This document shows, piece after piece, positions 23,791 through 29,186 of a stretch of 64,000 nucleotides of DNA; positions within the stretch are counted from its first letter, which is position 1; each line of letters begins with the position of its first letter. Below the pieces are notes generated by a model, which had not been told where the DNA came from, searched no databases, and worked only from the letters and a program-made list of their open reading frames with translations. The position numbers were made by a program, and so were the translations under genes. The stretch is from the human T2T-CHM13v2.0 reference genome, Homo sapiens: assembly GCF_009914755.1 (NCBI RefSeq), contig NC_060931.1; one strand, written 5' to 3'.

Positions 23791-25432
23791 CTTAATTCCA
23801 AGAAATGGGGACCAACATTCTTCTTACAATTAGAAGATTCTTTGTTGTTCATAACAGTGGAGTCACAGGTGTCCCAAGGTTTTTCCCAGGCAGTTCAGCA
23901 GGCCTGAAGGCTTCTGGATGGAGTGCAGAAAATCACTTGTAAGCACAAAGAGTGTGGCAAGTGATGTGAGGTAGCTAACTGGAATCCACATTGAGGACCA
24001 GCTGCGTGCTTGGAACAGCAGCTCCAAGTGTCACTGCATCATCGTTGAGAGTTATTGACGGTGAAAACACAAACATATTACCGAACACTACCTTGCTAGC
24101 TTTGTGGCCCTAGCGAAGTCACTTCAATTCTCTGCCTCAGTGTCCATATTTGTTAATGAGGAAAATAATAGTACCCACCTCACAGGTTTGTGGTGAAGAT
24201 TAAACACTTAGAGAAAACATAAAATGCCTCTTGTGAAGTAAGTATTTTTTGAATATTAGCCATGATTATGTTATTGAATCAATGTTATGTATCAAGCTGT
24301 TACCGAATTATATCGGTGTTAGCCGTTGCTGTCATCATCTCCATTATCCTTGTATTTCAGACATGTGAGCTTTGGAAATTAAAATCTTTGAAAATATGAA
24401 TGTGATAGTTTAAGTTTTTGGTCTTTTGCCTTTCTGTAAAGACATACATTTTGCACTATGGAAATTCAGCTTTGATATCTTCAGTTTACAACTTAAAACT
24501 ATAAATTAGGCCTCCTTTTCTATTTTAATTTAATGGCTTTTTTATTCGTATACCAGTTGGTGATTATAAAGACTCTAAGGGTTAAAGCCAAAAGCCAAAA
24601 AACTTAATCTGTTGTCTGTGTGGAAAGTTCCTTTAGAAAAAGTAGTTTTTACTTGTCAAATTGTGTGTTTTTGAAAATTAACTGTTTCTTAAAATAAATT
24701 CTATAATTGTTCTGTGTCTTGAAATATGCTCTTTACCTCCCTTGTGGAGAAGTAGAGAGTTTGGAAGTCATGAAAGTAATTTGGAAAGGGCCTGACTACA
24801 ACGCTTGCATATCTTTGAGAAAGGGGAAAAATAAACATTTTTAATAATGTGGATTATTTTTGGGTGCTTGAAGTTATAAATTATATTAATATTTACTTAT
24901 AACAGACTATTACTAGACTATTACTCAAGTAATACAAGCTGTAAAAAAAATTCACCAATTTTGCTAATAGCATTTTAGAGTTCCTTCTTAGTCACTCTGA
25001 AAATACAAGGAAACACTCTTTCAGGTCGGGCCGGGCCCAGCTGGTTCCGGTTCCGTGAGCGCCCGGCAGACTGAGGGAGAGAGAGAGAGAAAGAGGAGGG
25101 GAGGAGGAGGAGGATTCAGGGAATAGGAGCTGGGGAGCCCTTCTGCGGAGCCCTTCTGCGCCACAGTGATATCAGTATCAAGATAAAAGTGTGGAATGGG
25201 AGAAAAATTCTCAAAGCCTGAAAGAAAATCTGGAGATGCTGTTTTTCCAGCAGCTCAGTTGAGGGAGAACTTAGCTTGTGTTTCTTGATTCCTCTTCAAC
25301 TTCTGTTTGCAAACCAAGACTTGTGTTTGGAGAACTCTATTGTACTGAGCCTAAGTCATTTATGATCTATAACAAGAACATGCATTTTCACATGTCAACT
25401 AGATTTGTGGACCGGTAAAGTTCTCCCCAAAG

Positions 25433-25554
25433 AGATGGGCTCTCACCCTGCCATCCAGGCTGGAATAGTGGTGCAATCATAGCCCATTGTAGCCTCCATC
25501 TCAAGGACTCAAGGGATCCTCCCTCCTAGGCCTCCCAGGTAGCTGGGATTACAG
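25433..25554 (-). mobile_element. Antisense Alu arm lacking its T-tail and ending at GGGATTACAG (exonised-Alu footprint)
   Basis: agatgggctctcacc...gctgggattacag; no tail and no TSD. Confidence 0.8.
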
Positions 25555-26967
25555 ATATAGAAAAGCATATCCTAAAATTCATATGGATTCTGAAGGGACC
25601 TCAAATACTCAATACAATACAGTCTTGAAACAGAAGAACAAAGCTAGAAGACTCACCTTTTCTGATTTTAAAACTTACTACAAAGCTACAGTAATCAAAA
25701 CAGTGTTGTACTAGCATAAGGAAGACATATAGACCAATGAAATAGAAGAGAGAGCCCAGAAATAAAACTTCATATATATGGTCAAATGATTTTTTTCTTT
25801 TTTCTTTTTTCTTGAGATGGAGCCTCGCTCTGTTGCCAGGCTGGAGTGCAGTGGCACGATCTCAGCTCACTGCAACCTCCGCCTCCTGGGTTCAAGCGAT
25901 TCTCCTGCCTCAGCCTCCCCAGTAGCTGGAATTACAGGCACCCACCATCATGCCCGGCTAATTTTTGTATTTTTAGTAGAGATTGGGTTTCACCATGTTG
26001 GCCAGGAAGGTCTCCATCTCTTGACCTTGTGATCTGCCTGCCTTGGCCTCCCAAAGTGCTGGGATTACAGTTGTGAGCCACTGCACCCAGCCGGTCAAAT
26101 GATTTTTAACAAGAGTACCAGGACTATTCAATGGAGAAAGGATAGTGTTTTCAACAAATGCTGCTGGGAAAATGGGATATCCACATGCAAAAAATGAAGT
26201 TGAACCCTTAACTAACACCATATACAAAAATTAACTCAAAATGGATCAAAGACCTAAATGTAAGATGCAAAACTATAAAAGTCTTAGAAGAAAATAAGGA
26301 AAAAACTTTATGACAGTGATTTATTCAGCAGTTATTTATTGGGTATGACATCAAAGGCACAAGCAACAACAACATAGAAGACTACATGAAAATGTTTAAA
26401 CTTTGTTAATCAAAAGACACTATCAATAGGGTGAAAAGATAACCACCAAATGGAGAAAGTATTTGCAAATTATATATCTGAAAAGGGTTATATAAAGCAT
26501 ATATGGAGAATTCGTGCAACTCAACAACAAAACAAACAGCTTGATTAGAAAATGAAGGAAAGTGTGTATTTCCTTCTCCAAAGGAAATATACAAATGGCA
26601 ATAGGTACACCAAAAGATGCCCAGCATCAGTGATCATTAGGAAAATCCAAGTCAATTTCCCATAATGAAATACCACCTTACACCCATTAGGATGGCTACT
26701 ATCAACATCAAACAATAATATGTTTTGGTGAGGACGTGGAAAAATTGGAACCCTTGTGCTCTGTTGGTGGGAAGGTAAAATGGTATAGTCACAGTGGGAA
26801 GCAGTATGGTGGCTCCTCATAAATATTGAAAATAGAATTTCCATGTGATGCAGTGATGCCACTTATGGGCATATCCCCAAAATGGTTGAAAACAGGGTCT
26901 TAAAGAGATAATTTGTACACCCATGTTCATACCAGCATCATTCACAATAGCTGAAATATGGAAGAAA
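25555..26967 (+). mobile_element. L1 ORF2 3' end/3'UTR fragment, with AluS (25796-26092, -) flanked by TSD ggtcaaatgattttt
   Basis: aaaacttactacaaagctacagtaatcaaaacagtg, tatacaaaaattaactcaaaatggatcaaagacctaaatg. Confidence 0.85.
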
Positions 26968-28868
26968 TGTAAACTAAAAATAAAACTTTAAGCTTTCCAA
27001 TTGTCTGAATGAACTCATCCTCTCAGCCAAGGACATCTCACAGTTCAGGACATGATGGGGAGGGGGCGATCAGATTCCCCATTATACTCTCCCTTTGGAA
27101 TTCAGGCACAACTGACCAGCATTAACATTAAAACAGAGATCTTACGACTTTTTGTAGCAATAAGACACCATATTCCAGCCTGACTAAAGTAAAGCATCAC
27201 ATGACAGATAGCAGGCCCTGTAAGAAATTGAAGTATTTTGCCCCCAAATATATTCCTTTGACATATTTAAAAATGGCCCTGCAAAACTGTCTCTTAGAGG
27301 CAAAATCTTACATTCTGTAGAGAATGCCTTTCCCTTTCTAGGTCTTTTCTCTGATCCTGGAGAGAATTATTTGAGTCTTTCATCATTTTAAGTCTCATAA
27401 GAAACATTTACAATCTATTCTTTCTGAAGCCTGCTACCTGGAGTCTTCATCTGCATAATAAGAACCATGGTCTCTACAACCCCTTATCTTAACCCAGACA
27501 CTCCCTTATATGGAATTTCAGGTGTGTATTTTTTATTTATTTTTATTTTTTATTTTTTGAGTACCCAGGCTGGATTGCAGTAGTGCGATCTCGGCTTATT
27601 GCAGCCTCCGCCTCTGGGGGTCACATGATTCTCGTGCCTCAGTCTCCTGAGTGGCTGGGATTACAGGCATGCACCACCATGCCTGGTTAATTTTTTTGTA
27701 TTTTTAATAGAGATGGGATTTCACCATGTTGGCCAGGCTGGTCTTGAACTTATGACCTCATGTGTTCCACCTGCCTCAGCCTCCCAGAGTACTGGGATTA
27801 CAAGTGTGATCCACCATGATCTGGCCTCACTCCAGCTTTTTTGTATTTTCAGTAGAAACAGGATTTTGCCGTGTTGGCCAGGCTGGTCTTGAACTCCTAG
27901 CCTCGAGTGATCCGCCTGCCTTAGCCTCCCAAGATGCTGGGATTACAGGTGTGAGCCACCATGCCCAAGTGGGTTTCTGGTCTTTAGGTAAACTAGTTTG
28001 ACAGGTTGCTAATCGGAAAATCTTTGAATCCACCTGTTAGCAGTGGTGAATCTATCTGGGTCTGCAACAACTTGATTCTTGCCTCCTTGGAGGAAAGAAT
28101 TTTGCTGAGAGGCAGTAGTTGGTTTCAGGCAGAGGGAGAGACTGAGGCAAGTTTTAAGAACAGGAGTGAGAATTTGTTTGAAAGTTTTAGAGCAGGAGTG
28201 AAAGGAAGCAGTACACTTAGAAGGGCCAAGCGGGTGACTTGCAAGATCCAAGTGCCCTGTTCAACCCTTGACTTGGGGTTTTGTACATTGTTATGGTTCT
28301 GGGGTTTGCTGAAGTTGTGCACGTGTTCACTTGAGGAGTTTTTTCCTTAACCTGTCGAGCGTTCCCAGTGGGAGGTCGTATAAGAGGCCATTTTGCCTCT
28401 TAGTGTGCCTGTTTGAGGTCTTTGAGAAGAGGATAACACCAGTTCCGAGTGTTTTCTGTCTGTTAGGAGACTGTCTTTTCCTGGTGCTGGCTGTGACCAC
28501 TTATCATTTTAGAGAGACAGTTTAACAACCACCTGACCATCACTTTATTGTCGCCTGACAGTCCTGGGGGCAACGGGTTGGGGGTATGTGTGTGGGGGTG
28601 CTCTCCTGCCCTGTCCATATCTGCCTAACTACCTACTCTAACATACCTATGAGCTGAAAGCCTCCACTTAGAGTGTTTGAGTTGTTCTGCCTTTTTTGAC
28701 TGAGCCATTGTACATCTTACATGTGTTGATTGATGTCTTATGTCTTCCTAAAATGTATAAAATTGAACTGTAGCCTGACCACCTTGGACACATGTCGTCA
28801 GGACCTCCTGAGGCTGTGTCACAGGCACGTCCTTAACCTTGGCAAAATAAACTTCTAAATTGAATGAG
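26968..28868 (+). mobile_element. MER4-family (ERV1) LTR, truncated at its polyA site; nested Alus (~27530-27970, -) and a MER50-like LTR
   Basis: Starts tgtaaactaaaaataaaa; ends ccttggcaaaataaacttctaaattgaatgag followed by A tail (no U5/CA end). Confidence 0.75.
28035..28643 (-). mobile_element. MER50-like solo LTR nested in MER4
   Basis: TG...CA ends (rc start tgttagagtaggtagttaggcag); degenerate 4-bp TSD cacc/tacc. Confidence 0.65.
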
Positions 28869-29186
28869 AAAAAAAAAGAAAAGAAAAGAAAATACAAGGA
28901 AACAAGCCATACATCCGGTTTTAATGTAGAACGTGGTACAGATATGGTCAGTATTTAACCTGAGCTAGTTACTTGCCTAAAAGTGTGATCATCTTTATTA
29001 TTTAAGTGATTGATGACATATGTAATACTTCTACTATGAAAAAGAATTTTGAGAGGTTAATTCTTAAGCAGAGAGCTCAATATACTTACTCGGATCCCGA
29101 GAGAAAGCCCATTTCTGTGGCATTTCCATACAGCATGATCCTGGTTGTTGATTCTTCTTGCCATGTTCACTTCCCTCTGTTTTCAG

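What the first reader, a model, noticed from the sequence alone, without database searches (positions are those of the whole stretch)
24999..28904. Hidden ~3.9 kb retrocopy of a non-coding, TE-mosaic transcript in LMTK2 intron 7
Seen: an identical 17-bp repeat GAAAATACAAGGAAACA at 24999-25015 and 28888-28904. Just inside the right copy are AATAAA and an A-rich tail; just inside the left copy, AT-rich intron switches abruptly to a CpG-containing, GA-rich 5'UTR-like sequence. Established: TSD + polyA + A-rich nick site are hallmarks of L1 target-primed reverse transcription. Inference: what repeat annotation would split into Alu, L1, MER4 and MER50 pieces arrived as one cDNA from another locus, probably a lncRNA or a short isoform. 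I cannot name the parent.
Basis: partly seen in the sequence, partly recalled or inferred. Interest (0 to 1): 0.8.

Follow-up and report, generated by a model that had tools for sequence, protein, structure and literature searches.

The report
Retrocopy of a non-coding TBC1D5 transcript
A 3.9-kb stretch inside an LMTK2 intron is an old, dead, reverse-transcribed copy of a spliced non-coding RNA from the start of the TBC1D5 gene on chromosome 3; it is an ordinary kind of event, made from a template that gene-based retrocopy searches would overlook.

Summary
The 17-mer GAAAATACAAGGAAACA occurs exactly twice (24999-25015 and 28888-28904; no shuffle gave two copies). It brackets an insert with AATAAA (28846-28851) and an 18-nt A-rich tail.

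The insert (25016-28887) aligns to five collinear minus-strand blocks spread over 204 kb of contig C3 (chr3, 17,540,391-17,744,644). All four junctions fall on intact GT...AG intron borders in C3, and the A-tail is absent there.

The blocks are three short 5' exons, one exonised antisense Alu, and a 3.3-kb terminal exon. That exon is built from an L1 ORF2 fragment, Alus and an LTR-like repeat that supplies the poly(A) signal.

TBC1D5 coding exons lie downstream on the same strand. The first one is 29 kb beyond the terminal exon, so the copied RNA carried no coding sequence.

Divergence is 6.4% (K2P 6.75%), or roughly 15-35 My with recalled rates.

This is a typical L1-made processed retrocopy: a new member of a known kind, of modest interest. 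In passing, two further TBC1D5 exon-1 fragments (C2, C11) are fused at the exon-1 splice donor to L1 elements.

The parts
24999..25015 (+). 5' copy of the 17-bp target-site duplication GAAAATACAAGGAAACA
   Evidence: exact two-copy repeat; 0 of 100 shuffles gave 2 matches.
25016..25166 (+). Copy of parent exon 1 (C3:17744515-17744644, minus strand). It starts at the parent's presumed transcription start (CTCTTTCAGG...). It carries a 13-nt tandem duplication and two small insertions relative to the parent.
   Evidence: 126 of 130 aligned bases identical. The parent exon ends ...CCACAG followed by gtaaaa. Homology to the parent stops exactly at 25016.
25167..25231 (+). Copy of parent exon 2 (C3:17626396-17626460)
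   Evidence: 64 of 65 identical. In the parent the exon is flanked by ...tttcag and gtaaga.
25232..25432 (+). Copy of parent exon 3 (C3:17588886-17589090)
   Evidence: 192 of 201 aligned bases identical. In the parent the exon is flanked by ...ttctag and gtaagc.
25433..25554 (+). Copy of parent exon 4, an exonised antisense Alu (C3:17564552-17564675)
   Evidence: 114 of 122 identical. In the parent the acceptor is tttttttt-AG and the donor is CAG|GTATGT; 177 bits, against 86.9 for the next best of 57 Alu hits in 304 kb; sub-threshold Metazoa_SRP hit on the minus strand at 25430-25572.
25555..28869 (+). Copy of the parent's 3.3-kb terminal exon (C3:17540391-17543724). It begins in a sense L1 ORF2 fragment. 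It contains an antisense Alu at 25795-26092 with its own 15-bp duplication (25780-25794 / 26093-26107), an antisense Alu cluster at about 27520-27969, and an LTR-like dispersed repeat in two parts (about 26967-27523 and 28645-28869).
   Evidence: one contiguous alignment, 3070 of 3293 aligned bases identical, largest gap 27 nt; 25556-25711 translates to L1 ORF2p residues about 859-889 (E 4e-5); five further minus-strand SRP/Alu hits; family D5; the two LTR-like parts lie side by side at more than 20 other loci.
28846..28851 (+). AATAAA poly(A) signal, inherited from the LTR-like repeat and also intact in the parent
   Evidence: both copies read GGCAAAATAAACTTCTAA. The cleavage point is 18 nt downstream.
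28870..28887 (+). A-rich tail (16 A, 2 G), not templated in the parent
   Evidence: after ...GAGA the parent continues cttgtctcagatac, whereas the retrocopy continues aaaaaaaagaaaagaaaa.
28888..28904 (+). 3' copy of the 17-bp target-site duplication

Best explanation
Window 25016-28887 is a full-length L1-mediated processed retrocopy, inserted by target-primed reverse transcription, of a five-exon polyadenylated non-coding RNA.

The RNA was transcribed from the 5' end of the TBC1D5 locus on chr3 (T2T 17,540,391-17,744,644, minus strand). It started at an upstream non-coding exon and spliced through two more short exons and an exonised antisense Alu. It ended in a 3.3-kb alternative terminal exon made of L1, Alu and LTR-like sequence, using the LTR-like repeat's AATAAA. 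That end lies 29 kb before the first TBC1D5 coding exon.

L1 endonuclease nicked a T-rich site in LMTK2 intron 7 (bottom strand GTATTTTC|AGAG), the poly(A) tail primed reverse transcription, and the cDNA was integrated with a 17-bp target-site duplication.

Shown: intron loss at four GT-AG borders, the untemplated A-tail, the duplication, the parent locus, the absence of coding sequence, and 6.4% divergence.

Inferred: that exon 1 is TBC1D5's own first exon, that L1 was the enzyme source, an age of about 15-35 My, and that the copy is now inert.
For: - Flanking repeat: 17-bp exact direct repeat; 0 of 100 shuffles gave 2 copies.
- Parent blocks: query bases 1-132, 149-217 and 217-412, 416-543 and 538-3854 map to five collinear minus-strand blocks on C3, separated by 118,054, 37,305, 24,210 and 20,827 bp.
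- Splice signals: 4 of 4 junctions coincide with GT...AG in the parent.
- Tail: the poly(A) tail is absent from the parent, and AATAAA lies 18 nt upstream of the cleavage point in both copies.
- Divergence: 245 mismatches in 3811 aligned bases and 24 gap events, none longer than 27 nt.
- Alu exon: its parent is unambiguous (177 vs 86.9 bits).
- Gene identity: the exon at C3:17310189-17310338 is 100% identical to human 'TBC1 domain family member 5 isoform e'. TBC1D5 coding exons map only to C3:17163150-17511103, minus strand.
- No coding content: tblastn of 4 TBC1D5 proteins against the insert and the parent loci gave only chance hits with E>5. No ATG-started ORF of 100 aa or more lies in the insert.
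- Constraint: exons 1-3 diverge half as much as exons 4-5 (14/396 vs 231/3415, Fisher p=0.012). This fits constraint on the parent's 5' exons.
Against: - No transcript annotation for chr3 was available, so it is not shown that exon 1 is TBC1D5's annotated first exon, or that this isoform exists today.
- The exon-by-exon Pfam scan did not place a TBC gene at this locus at E<=0.01 (0 of 97 hits on C3). Only two weak hits (E 1.4 and 6.8) appeared there among 129 at E<=10.
- The nick site (TTTC/A or TTTT/C) is only a loose match to the recalled L1 endonuclease consensus TTTT/AA.
- The exon 4/5 junction needs one substitution (parent AAATAG, retrocopy ATATAG) to fit the canonical acceptor.
- No primate orthologue could be examined for the empty site.
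Confidence: 0.93

Rival explanations
1. The parent RNA comes from an independent lncRNA gene that merely lies upstream of TBC1D5 on the same strand. It is not a TBC1D5 isoform sharing that gene's promoter and 5'UTR exons.
For: No annotation was available. Exon 1 lies 233.5 kb upstream of the first coding exon, and none of the five blocks holds TBC1D5 coding sequence.
Against: - Same strand, and collinear with the coding exons.
- Exons 1-3 evolve about half as fast as exons 4-5, as expected for retained UTR exons.
- By recall only, TBC1D5 spans about 585 kb. That matches the distance from exon 1 to just beyond the last coding exon (581.5 kb plus the 3'UTR).
Confidence: 0.15
2. A DNA-level (segmental) duplication or transposition of chr3 sequence into LMTK2 intron 7.
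For: The 3.3-kb terminal block is contiguous in both loci.
Against: - 200 kb of intron is missing precisely at four GT-AG borders.
- There is an untemplated A-tail and a 17-bp target-site duplication.
- Homology stops exactly at the transcript's ends.
Confidence: 0.01
3. A chimera assembled by reverse-transcriptase template switching, or by trans-splicing, between unrelated RNAs, rather than a copy of one cis-spliced transcript.
For: The same exon 1 does occur fused to L1 elements elsewhere (C2 and C11). A preprint proposes trans-splicing for such chimeras (10.1101/2025.02.02.635956, passages read).
Against: All five blocks are in genomic order, on one strand, within 204 kb, and each has canonical donor and acceptor sites. 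There are no untemplated bases at any junction.
Confidence: 0.03
4. The retrocopy has been co-opted. One possibility is that its sense-oriented AATAAA ends short LMTK2 transcripts. Another is that it is transcribed as an RNA related to the TBC1D5 5'UTR.
For: It lies in the sense orientation of LMTK2, 282 nt upstream of exon 8, with an intact AATAAA. It has persisted for a long time.
Against: - The hub's RefSeq table lists no exon, gene or functional element at 24999-28904.
- Divergence of exons 4-5 (6.8%) looks neutral.
- There are 24 indel events, and the A-tail has decayed.
- No expression data could be consulted.
Confidence: 0.06

Closest known systems
L1-mediated processed pseudogenes / retrocopies of cellular mRNAs
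   Same: Loss of all introns at exact exon borders, a 3' poly(A) tail after AATAAA, a 17-bp target-site duplication, a T-rich nick site, and a parent on another chromosome.
   Different: The template holds no coding sequence, and about 85% of it is one terminal exon made of transposable-element pieces. Searches that start from proteins or coding DNA cannot find it; the review PMC5470649, section 6 (passage read), describes those as the standard approaches. A repeat masker would cut it into pieces.
Retrocopies as 'genomic fossils' of splice isoforms (Shemesh et al. 2006 PNAS). I saw this only as an entry in the reference list of PMC5470649; the paper itself is not held and its content is recalled.
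   Same: The retrocopy freezes one splice form of its parent at the time of insertion.
   Different: Here the frozen isoform is non-coding. It includes an exonised antisense Alu and ends at a poly(A) site in an LTR-like repeat, upstream of the start codon.
Alu exonisation (antisense Alu supplying a poly-T tract plus AG acceptor and a GT donor); the concept is recalled
   Same: Parent exon 4 is an antisense Alu piece bounded by tttttttt-AG and CAG|GTATGT.
   Different: The evidence for its use is a DNA fossil on another chromosome rather than RNA data.
First-exon/LINE-1 5' chimeras (bioRxiv 10.1101/2025.02.02.635956; passages of sections 24 and 32 read) and SpIREs (PMC5860796; abstract and passages read)
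   Same: This applies to the side finding only. TBC1D5 exon 1 ends at its donor and is fused in sense to an L1. In C2 the fusion is within the first few bases of the element, after a 22-23-nt linker. In C11 it is at a TTTTAG acceptor about 89 nt in, which matches the preprint's 'position 89 of L1PB1'.
   Different: The main finding holds no L1 5' end and is an ordinary cis-spliced transcript copy.

Membership tests
L1-mediated processed retrocopy | Parent gene's introns are absent, with junctions exactly at exon borders | tested here: met
   4 of 4 junctions fall on GT...AG borders in C3. The removed introns are 118,054, 37,305, 24,210 and 20,827 bp.
L1-mediated processed retrocopy | 3' poly(A) tail downstream of a poly(A) signal, not present in the parent DNA | tested here: met
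   AATAAA at 28846-28851 and an 18-nt A-rich tail at 28870-28887. The parent continues cttgtctcag instead.
L1-mediated processed retrocopy | Flanking target-site duplication of roughly 7-20 bp | tested here: met
   17-bp exact repeat; 0 of 100 shuffles gave 2 matches.
L1-mediated processed retrocopy | Insertion at an L1 endonuclease-type T-rich site (consensus TTTT/AA, recalled) | tested here: inconclusive
   The bottom strand reads GTATTTTC|AGAG. That gives TTTC/A, or TTTT/C if the G belongs to the tail. It is T-rich but not the exact consensus.
L1-mediated processed retrocopy | Intron-bearing parent at a different locus | tested here: met
   The parent is on C3 and the copy on C7.
L1-mediated processed retrocopy | Empty, single-copy target site in lineages that split before the insertion | not testable with these tools
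   No primate genomes are held; only the window's own assembly could be searched.
Retrocopy of a non-coding transcript | The template carries no part of the parent gene's coding sequence and no long ORF | tested here: met
   The largest ATG-started ORF is 99 aa and lies on the opposite strand. tblastn with 4 TBC1D5 proteins gave only hits with E>5. The first coding exon, C3:17511002-17511103, lies 29,287 bp beyond the terminal exon.
TBC1D5 transcript isoform | Shares the promoter and first exon with annotated TBC1D5 mRNAs | not testable with these tools
   No chr3 annotation or transcript set was available. Support is indirect: same strand, collinear and upstream of the coding exons; reduced divergence of exons 1-3; and a recalled gene span.
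Segmental duplication | Introns and flanks are copied together with the exons | tested here: not met
   No intron sequence lies between the blocks, and homology ends at the transcript's ends.
Alu exonisation (parent exon 4) | Antisense Alu bounded by a poly-T/AG acceptor and a GT donor | tested here: met
   Minus-strand Metazoa_SRP hit at 25430-25572 (21.4 bits, below the gathering score, as expected for an Alu). The parent flanks are tttttttt-AG and CAG|GTATGT.

The most novel reading that the evidence does not exclude
The TBC1D5 exon-1 donor, which sits before a 118-kb intron, may be a recurrent germline source of retro-copied RNA. It has left three independent fossils. One is this full-length copy of a non-coding Alu-exon/LTR-terminated isoform in LMTK2. 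The other two are older exon-1/L1 fusions on C2 and C11, one of them made through the L1 acceptor near position 89.

If none of the three is annotated, they would illustrate a systematic blind spot: retrocopies of non-coding, TE-rich isoforms hidden under repeat annotation. They would also give dated snapshots of isoform use and of exon-to-L1 splicing (cis or trans) at one promoter.
Probability: 0.4. Interest if true: 0.4.

Novelty: new member of a known kind. Interest (0 to 1): 0.3.

Why it matters
The mechanism is textbook, so this changes nothing about how retroposition works. Its value is as a worked example.

- A 3.9-kb insert that repeat annotation would report as unrelated Alu, L1 and LTR fragments is really one cDNA.
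- The hub's RefSeq table has no row for it.
- Retrocopy catalogues built from coding sequences cannot detect it.
- It dates an Alu exonisation and the use of an LTR-like poly(A) site in the TBC1D5 5' region to before about 15-35 My ago.
- Together with two exon-1/L1 fusions, it marks that promoter as active in the germline or early embryo.

Tried and rejected

2. Naming the parent by an exon-wise Pfam scan (PF00566) of the genome. At E<=0.01, 0 of 97 hits lay on C3. At E<=10, 129 hits included only two weak ones in the locus. These two were used as leads and confirmed by other means.

3. PDB sequence search with the second TBC exon peptide: 0 hits.

4. Pfam on 11 open-frame pieces of the insert: 0 of 11 matched any family. 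Of 3 pieces sent to the PDB sequence search, 1 matched L1 ORF2p.

5. MER4/MER50 labels: no repeat library was on hand, so the names stay untested. I can only say the 3' repeat is a dispersed, roughly 850-bp LTR-like unit split by a 1.1-kb insertion.

6. Search for canonical TBC1D5 mRNA retrocopies. Protein searches found none outside C3, but both ran with a stricter first look, so absence is not shown.

7. Downstream sequence of the C11 and C2 exon-1 fragments: only high-copy repeats matched, with no C3 exons.

8. Source L1 for those chimeras in TBC1D5 introns 1-2. A genome search with the linker plus the L1 start found no copy carrying the linker: 39 of 39 other scored matches start at query base 21-43, none lies on C3:17.5-17.75 Mb, and only 40 of 1352 candidates were scored.

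9. Literature. 'LMTK2'+'retrocopy' gave 0 papers. The TBC1D5 pseudogene/retrocopy terms gave 0 papers. Phrases for lncRNA retrocopies gave 5 papers, none judged relevant from their titles and abstract starts in the search listing. Two TBC1D5 papers gave only the cytoband 3p24.3, with no coordinates.
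Full report
**Observation**

The 17-mer GAAAATACAAGGAAACA occurs exactly twice in the window, at 24999-25015 and 28888-28904. Even with 2 mismatches allowed there are no other copies, and 0 of 100 dinucleotide-preserving shuffles gave two matches. The repeat finder reports the same pair independently (family D4).

Just inside the right copy are AATAAA (28846-28851) and an 18-nt tail of 16 A and 2 G (28870-28887). Just inside the left copy, GC rises from 0.27 to 0.565. 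The description is accurate.

By the hub's exon table the site is LMTK2 intron 7, in the same orientation as LMTK2. There are 282 nt between the right repeat copy and exon 8.

**The parent locus**

The window's own assembly could be searched. The first 417 bases of the insert hit three separate minus-strand blocks on contig C3:
- bases 1-132 at 17744521-17744644
- bases 149-217 at 17626395-17626463
- bases 217-412 at 17588891-17589090

The whole insert adds one contiguous block: bases 538-3854 at C3:17540391-17543726, 92% identical.

I fetched the 43 kb between blocks 3 and 5. The missing Alu-like piece (bases 416-543) matches C3:17564548-17564677 at 91.5%. This copy is unambiguous. It scores 177 bits, against 86.9 for the next best of 57 Alu hits in the 304 kb of sequence I held.

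**Junctions**

Reading the parent flanks gives five exons. In the parent, each exon is followed by a GT donor and each later exon is preceded by an AG acceptor:

| Exon | C3 coordinates | Length | Parent signals |
|---|---|---|---|
| E1 | 17744515-17744644 | 130 nt | ends ...CCACAG, followed by gtaaaa |
| E2 | 17626396-17626460 | 65 nt | ...tttcag before, gtaaga after |
| E3 | 17588886-17589090 | 205 nt | ...ttctag before, gtaagc after |
| E4 | 17564552-17564675 | 124 nt | tttttttt-AG before, CAG\|GTATGT after |
| E5 | 17540391-17543724 | 3334 nt | tttttttggaAG before |

- The retrocopy joins these exons directly. The removed introns measure 118,054, 37,305, 24,210 and 20,827 bp.
- The E4/E5 junction needs one substitution to fit (parent AAATAG, copy ATATAG).
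- At the 3' end both copies read GGCAAAATAAACTTCTAA...GAGA. The parent then continues cttgtctcag, while the copy continues with the A-tail and the duplicated target.
- At the 5' end homology begins exactly at CTCTTTCAGG. The parent's upstream sequence (...ccctgtt) is not copied, so the copy is full length with respect to a transcription start at C3:17744644.

These features rule out a DNA-level duplication. They are the defining marks of an L1-made processed retrocopy. The nick site (bottom strand GTATTTTC|AGAG) is T-rich but only a loose match to the recalled TTTT/AA consensus.

**What the template was made of**

- **E4** is an antisense Alu piece. It gives a sub-threshold Metazoa_SRP hit on the minus strand at 25430-25572 and uses the poly-T/AG and GT sites typical of Alu exonisation.
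- **E5 begins inside a sense L1 ORF2 fragment.** Window 25556-25711 translates to a match with human ORF2p residues about 859-889, E about 4e-5. Two other pieces gave no ORF2p hit, and Pfam gave 0 of 11.
- **E5 holds an antisense Alu at 25795-26092** with its own 15-bp duplication (family D5). The parent shares this Alu, because the alignment has no gap above 27 nt.
- **E5 holds an antisense Alu cluster at about 27520-27969**.
- **E5 ends in a dispersed LTR-like repeat.** Its two parts (insert bases about 1952-2508 and 3630-3854) lie next to each other at more than 20 other loci. This repeat supplies the AATAAA.

The names MER4 and MER50 could not be tested.

**Which gene**

- A Pfam RabGAP-TBC scan of the genome put nothing on C3 at E<=0.01 (0 of 97 hits).
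- At E<=10 it gave two weak, collinear, minus-strand hits at C3:17310201-17310338 and 17374238-17374366.
- The first of these exons resembles TBC1D17 in the PDB (E 0.003). It is 100% identical, over the exon part, to 'TBC1 domain family member 5 isoform e [Homo sapiens]'.
- Mapping that protein and a full-length macaque TBC1D5 back to the genome places the coding exons only on C3 minus strand, from 17163150 to 17511103. Residues 1-34 map to 17511002-17511103.

All five retro-copied exons therefore lie upstream of the coding sequence, and E5 ends 29,287 bp before the first coding exon.

- tblastn of four TBC1D5 proteins against the insert and the parent loci gave only chance hits (E>5).
- The insert has no ATG-started ORF of 100 aa or more.

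So the copied RNA was non-coding.

That E1 is TBC1D5's own first exon is an inference, to which I give about 0.8. It rests on strand, order, the reduced divergence of E1-E3, and my recollection that the gene spans about 585 kb. No chr3 annotation was available.

**Age and constraint**

Exon-by-exon alignment gives 245 mismatches in 3811 aligned bases (6.4%). The K2P distance is 6.75%, and the non-CpG Jukes-Cantor distance is 5.8%. There are 24 gap events.

With recalled neutral rates of 1.0-2.2e-9 per site per year, this is about 15-35 My. That is near the recalled human-macaque divergence level, so the insertion should be shared by apes and perhaps by Old World monkeys.

E1-E3 differ at 14 of 396 sites and E4-E5 at 231 of 3415 (Fisher p=0.012). 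The ratio is about one half. That is what one expects if the parent's 5' exons are constrained while the terminal exon and the whole retrocopy drift.

**Function**

I see no sign that the copy does anything now. It has no coding capacity and brought no promoter with it. It shows near-neutral divergence and a decayed tail, and the hub's RefSeq table has no feature there. Its sense-oriented AATAAA inside an LMTK2 intron could in principle end short LMTK2 transcripts; I could not test this and give it a low probability.

**Prior knowledge**

- No paper in the searchable library links LMTK2 with a retrocopy or mentions a TBC1D5 pseudogene or retrocopy.
- Phrase searches for lncRNA retrocopies gave 5 papers, none judged relevant from their titles and abstract starts in the listing.
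- A review states that retrocopy surveys start from proteins or coding DNA (PMC5470649, section 6, passage read). That explains how such a copy escapes.
- The idea of retrocopies as fossils of splice isoforms is older (Shemesh et al. 2006). I saw that paper only in a reference list; it is not held.

The finding is a new member of a known kind.

**Seen in passing**

Two other fragments of E1 exist, on C11 (87.6% identical to the parent) and on C2 (85.9%). Both are 5'-truncated, both follow an A-rich flank, and both end exactly at the E1 donor.

- **C2.** The exon is followed by 22-23 nt and then an L1, starting within a few bases of the point where 39 of 39 other scored copies begin. An L1 ORF1 domain lies 1.27 kb further on the same strand (PF02994, E 8.5e-10).
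- **C11.** The exon is joined about 89 nt into the same L1 family, right after a TTTTAG that is present in 5 of 5 other copies aligned. There is also a gap of about 330 nt further in.

This is the class of first-exon/L1 chimeras described in 10.1101/2025.02.02.635956 (passages read). That preprint notes an acceptor at position 89 of L1PB1 and a preference for exons that precede long introns.

No source L1 carrying the linker was found, but only 40 of 1352 candidates were scored. The introns could not be fetched.

Noticed in passing
L006 (G000:C2:70413098-70416163), exon-1 fragment at C2:70414601-70414678 (+), L1 from about C2:70414701: A 5'-truncated copy of TBC1D5 exon 1 (85.9% identical to the parent) ends exactly at the exon-1 splice donor. 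It is followed by a 22-23-nt linker and then an L1, starting within a few bases of the element's 5' terminus. An L1 ORF1 RBD-like domain (PF02994, E 8.5e-10) lies 1.27 kb downstream on the same strand. This looks like a first-exon/L1 5' chimera.
   Followed up: partly
L004 (G000:C11:121305711-121308812), exon-1 fragment at C11:121307206-121307312 (-): A second 5'-truncated TBC1D5 exon-1 copy (87.6% identical) is joined at the exon-1 donor directly to an L1 of the same family, about 89 nt from its start. The join follows a TTTTAG acceptor that is present in 5 of 5 other L1 copies aligned. About 330 nt of the L1 5' region is also missing relative to other copies, which may reflect splicing within the 5'UTR.
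   Followed up: partly
window 25016-25166 vs C3:17744515-17744644: The retrocopy's exon-1 part carries a 13-nt tandem duplication (GAGCCCTTCTGCG x2, at about 25134-25159), a 6-nt insertion and a 2-nt insertion relative to the parent. Without an outgroup I cannot tell which locus changed.
   Followed up: no
window 25780-26107: An antisense Alu (25795-26092) has its own 15-bp target duplication, GGTCAAATGATTTTT. It sits inside the L1 ORF2 fragment and is present in both the parent and the retrocopy, so it inserted in chr3 before the retroposition.
   Followed up: partly
window 25812-25960 and 27562-27689: Sub-threshold Rfam hits to mir-1268 and mir-3135 (24-52 bits, against gathering scores of 80-83) fall inside Alu sequence. 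They most likely reflect Alu-derived miRNA families rather than genes.
   Followed up: no
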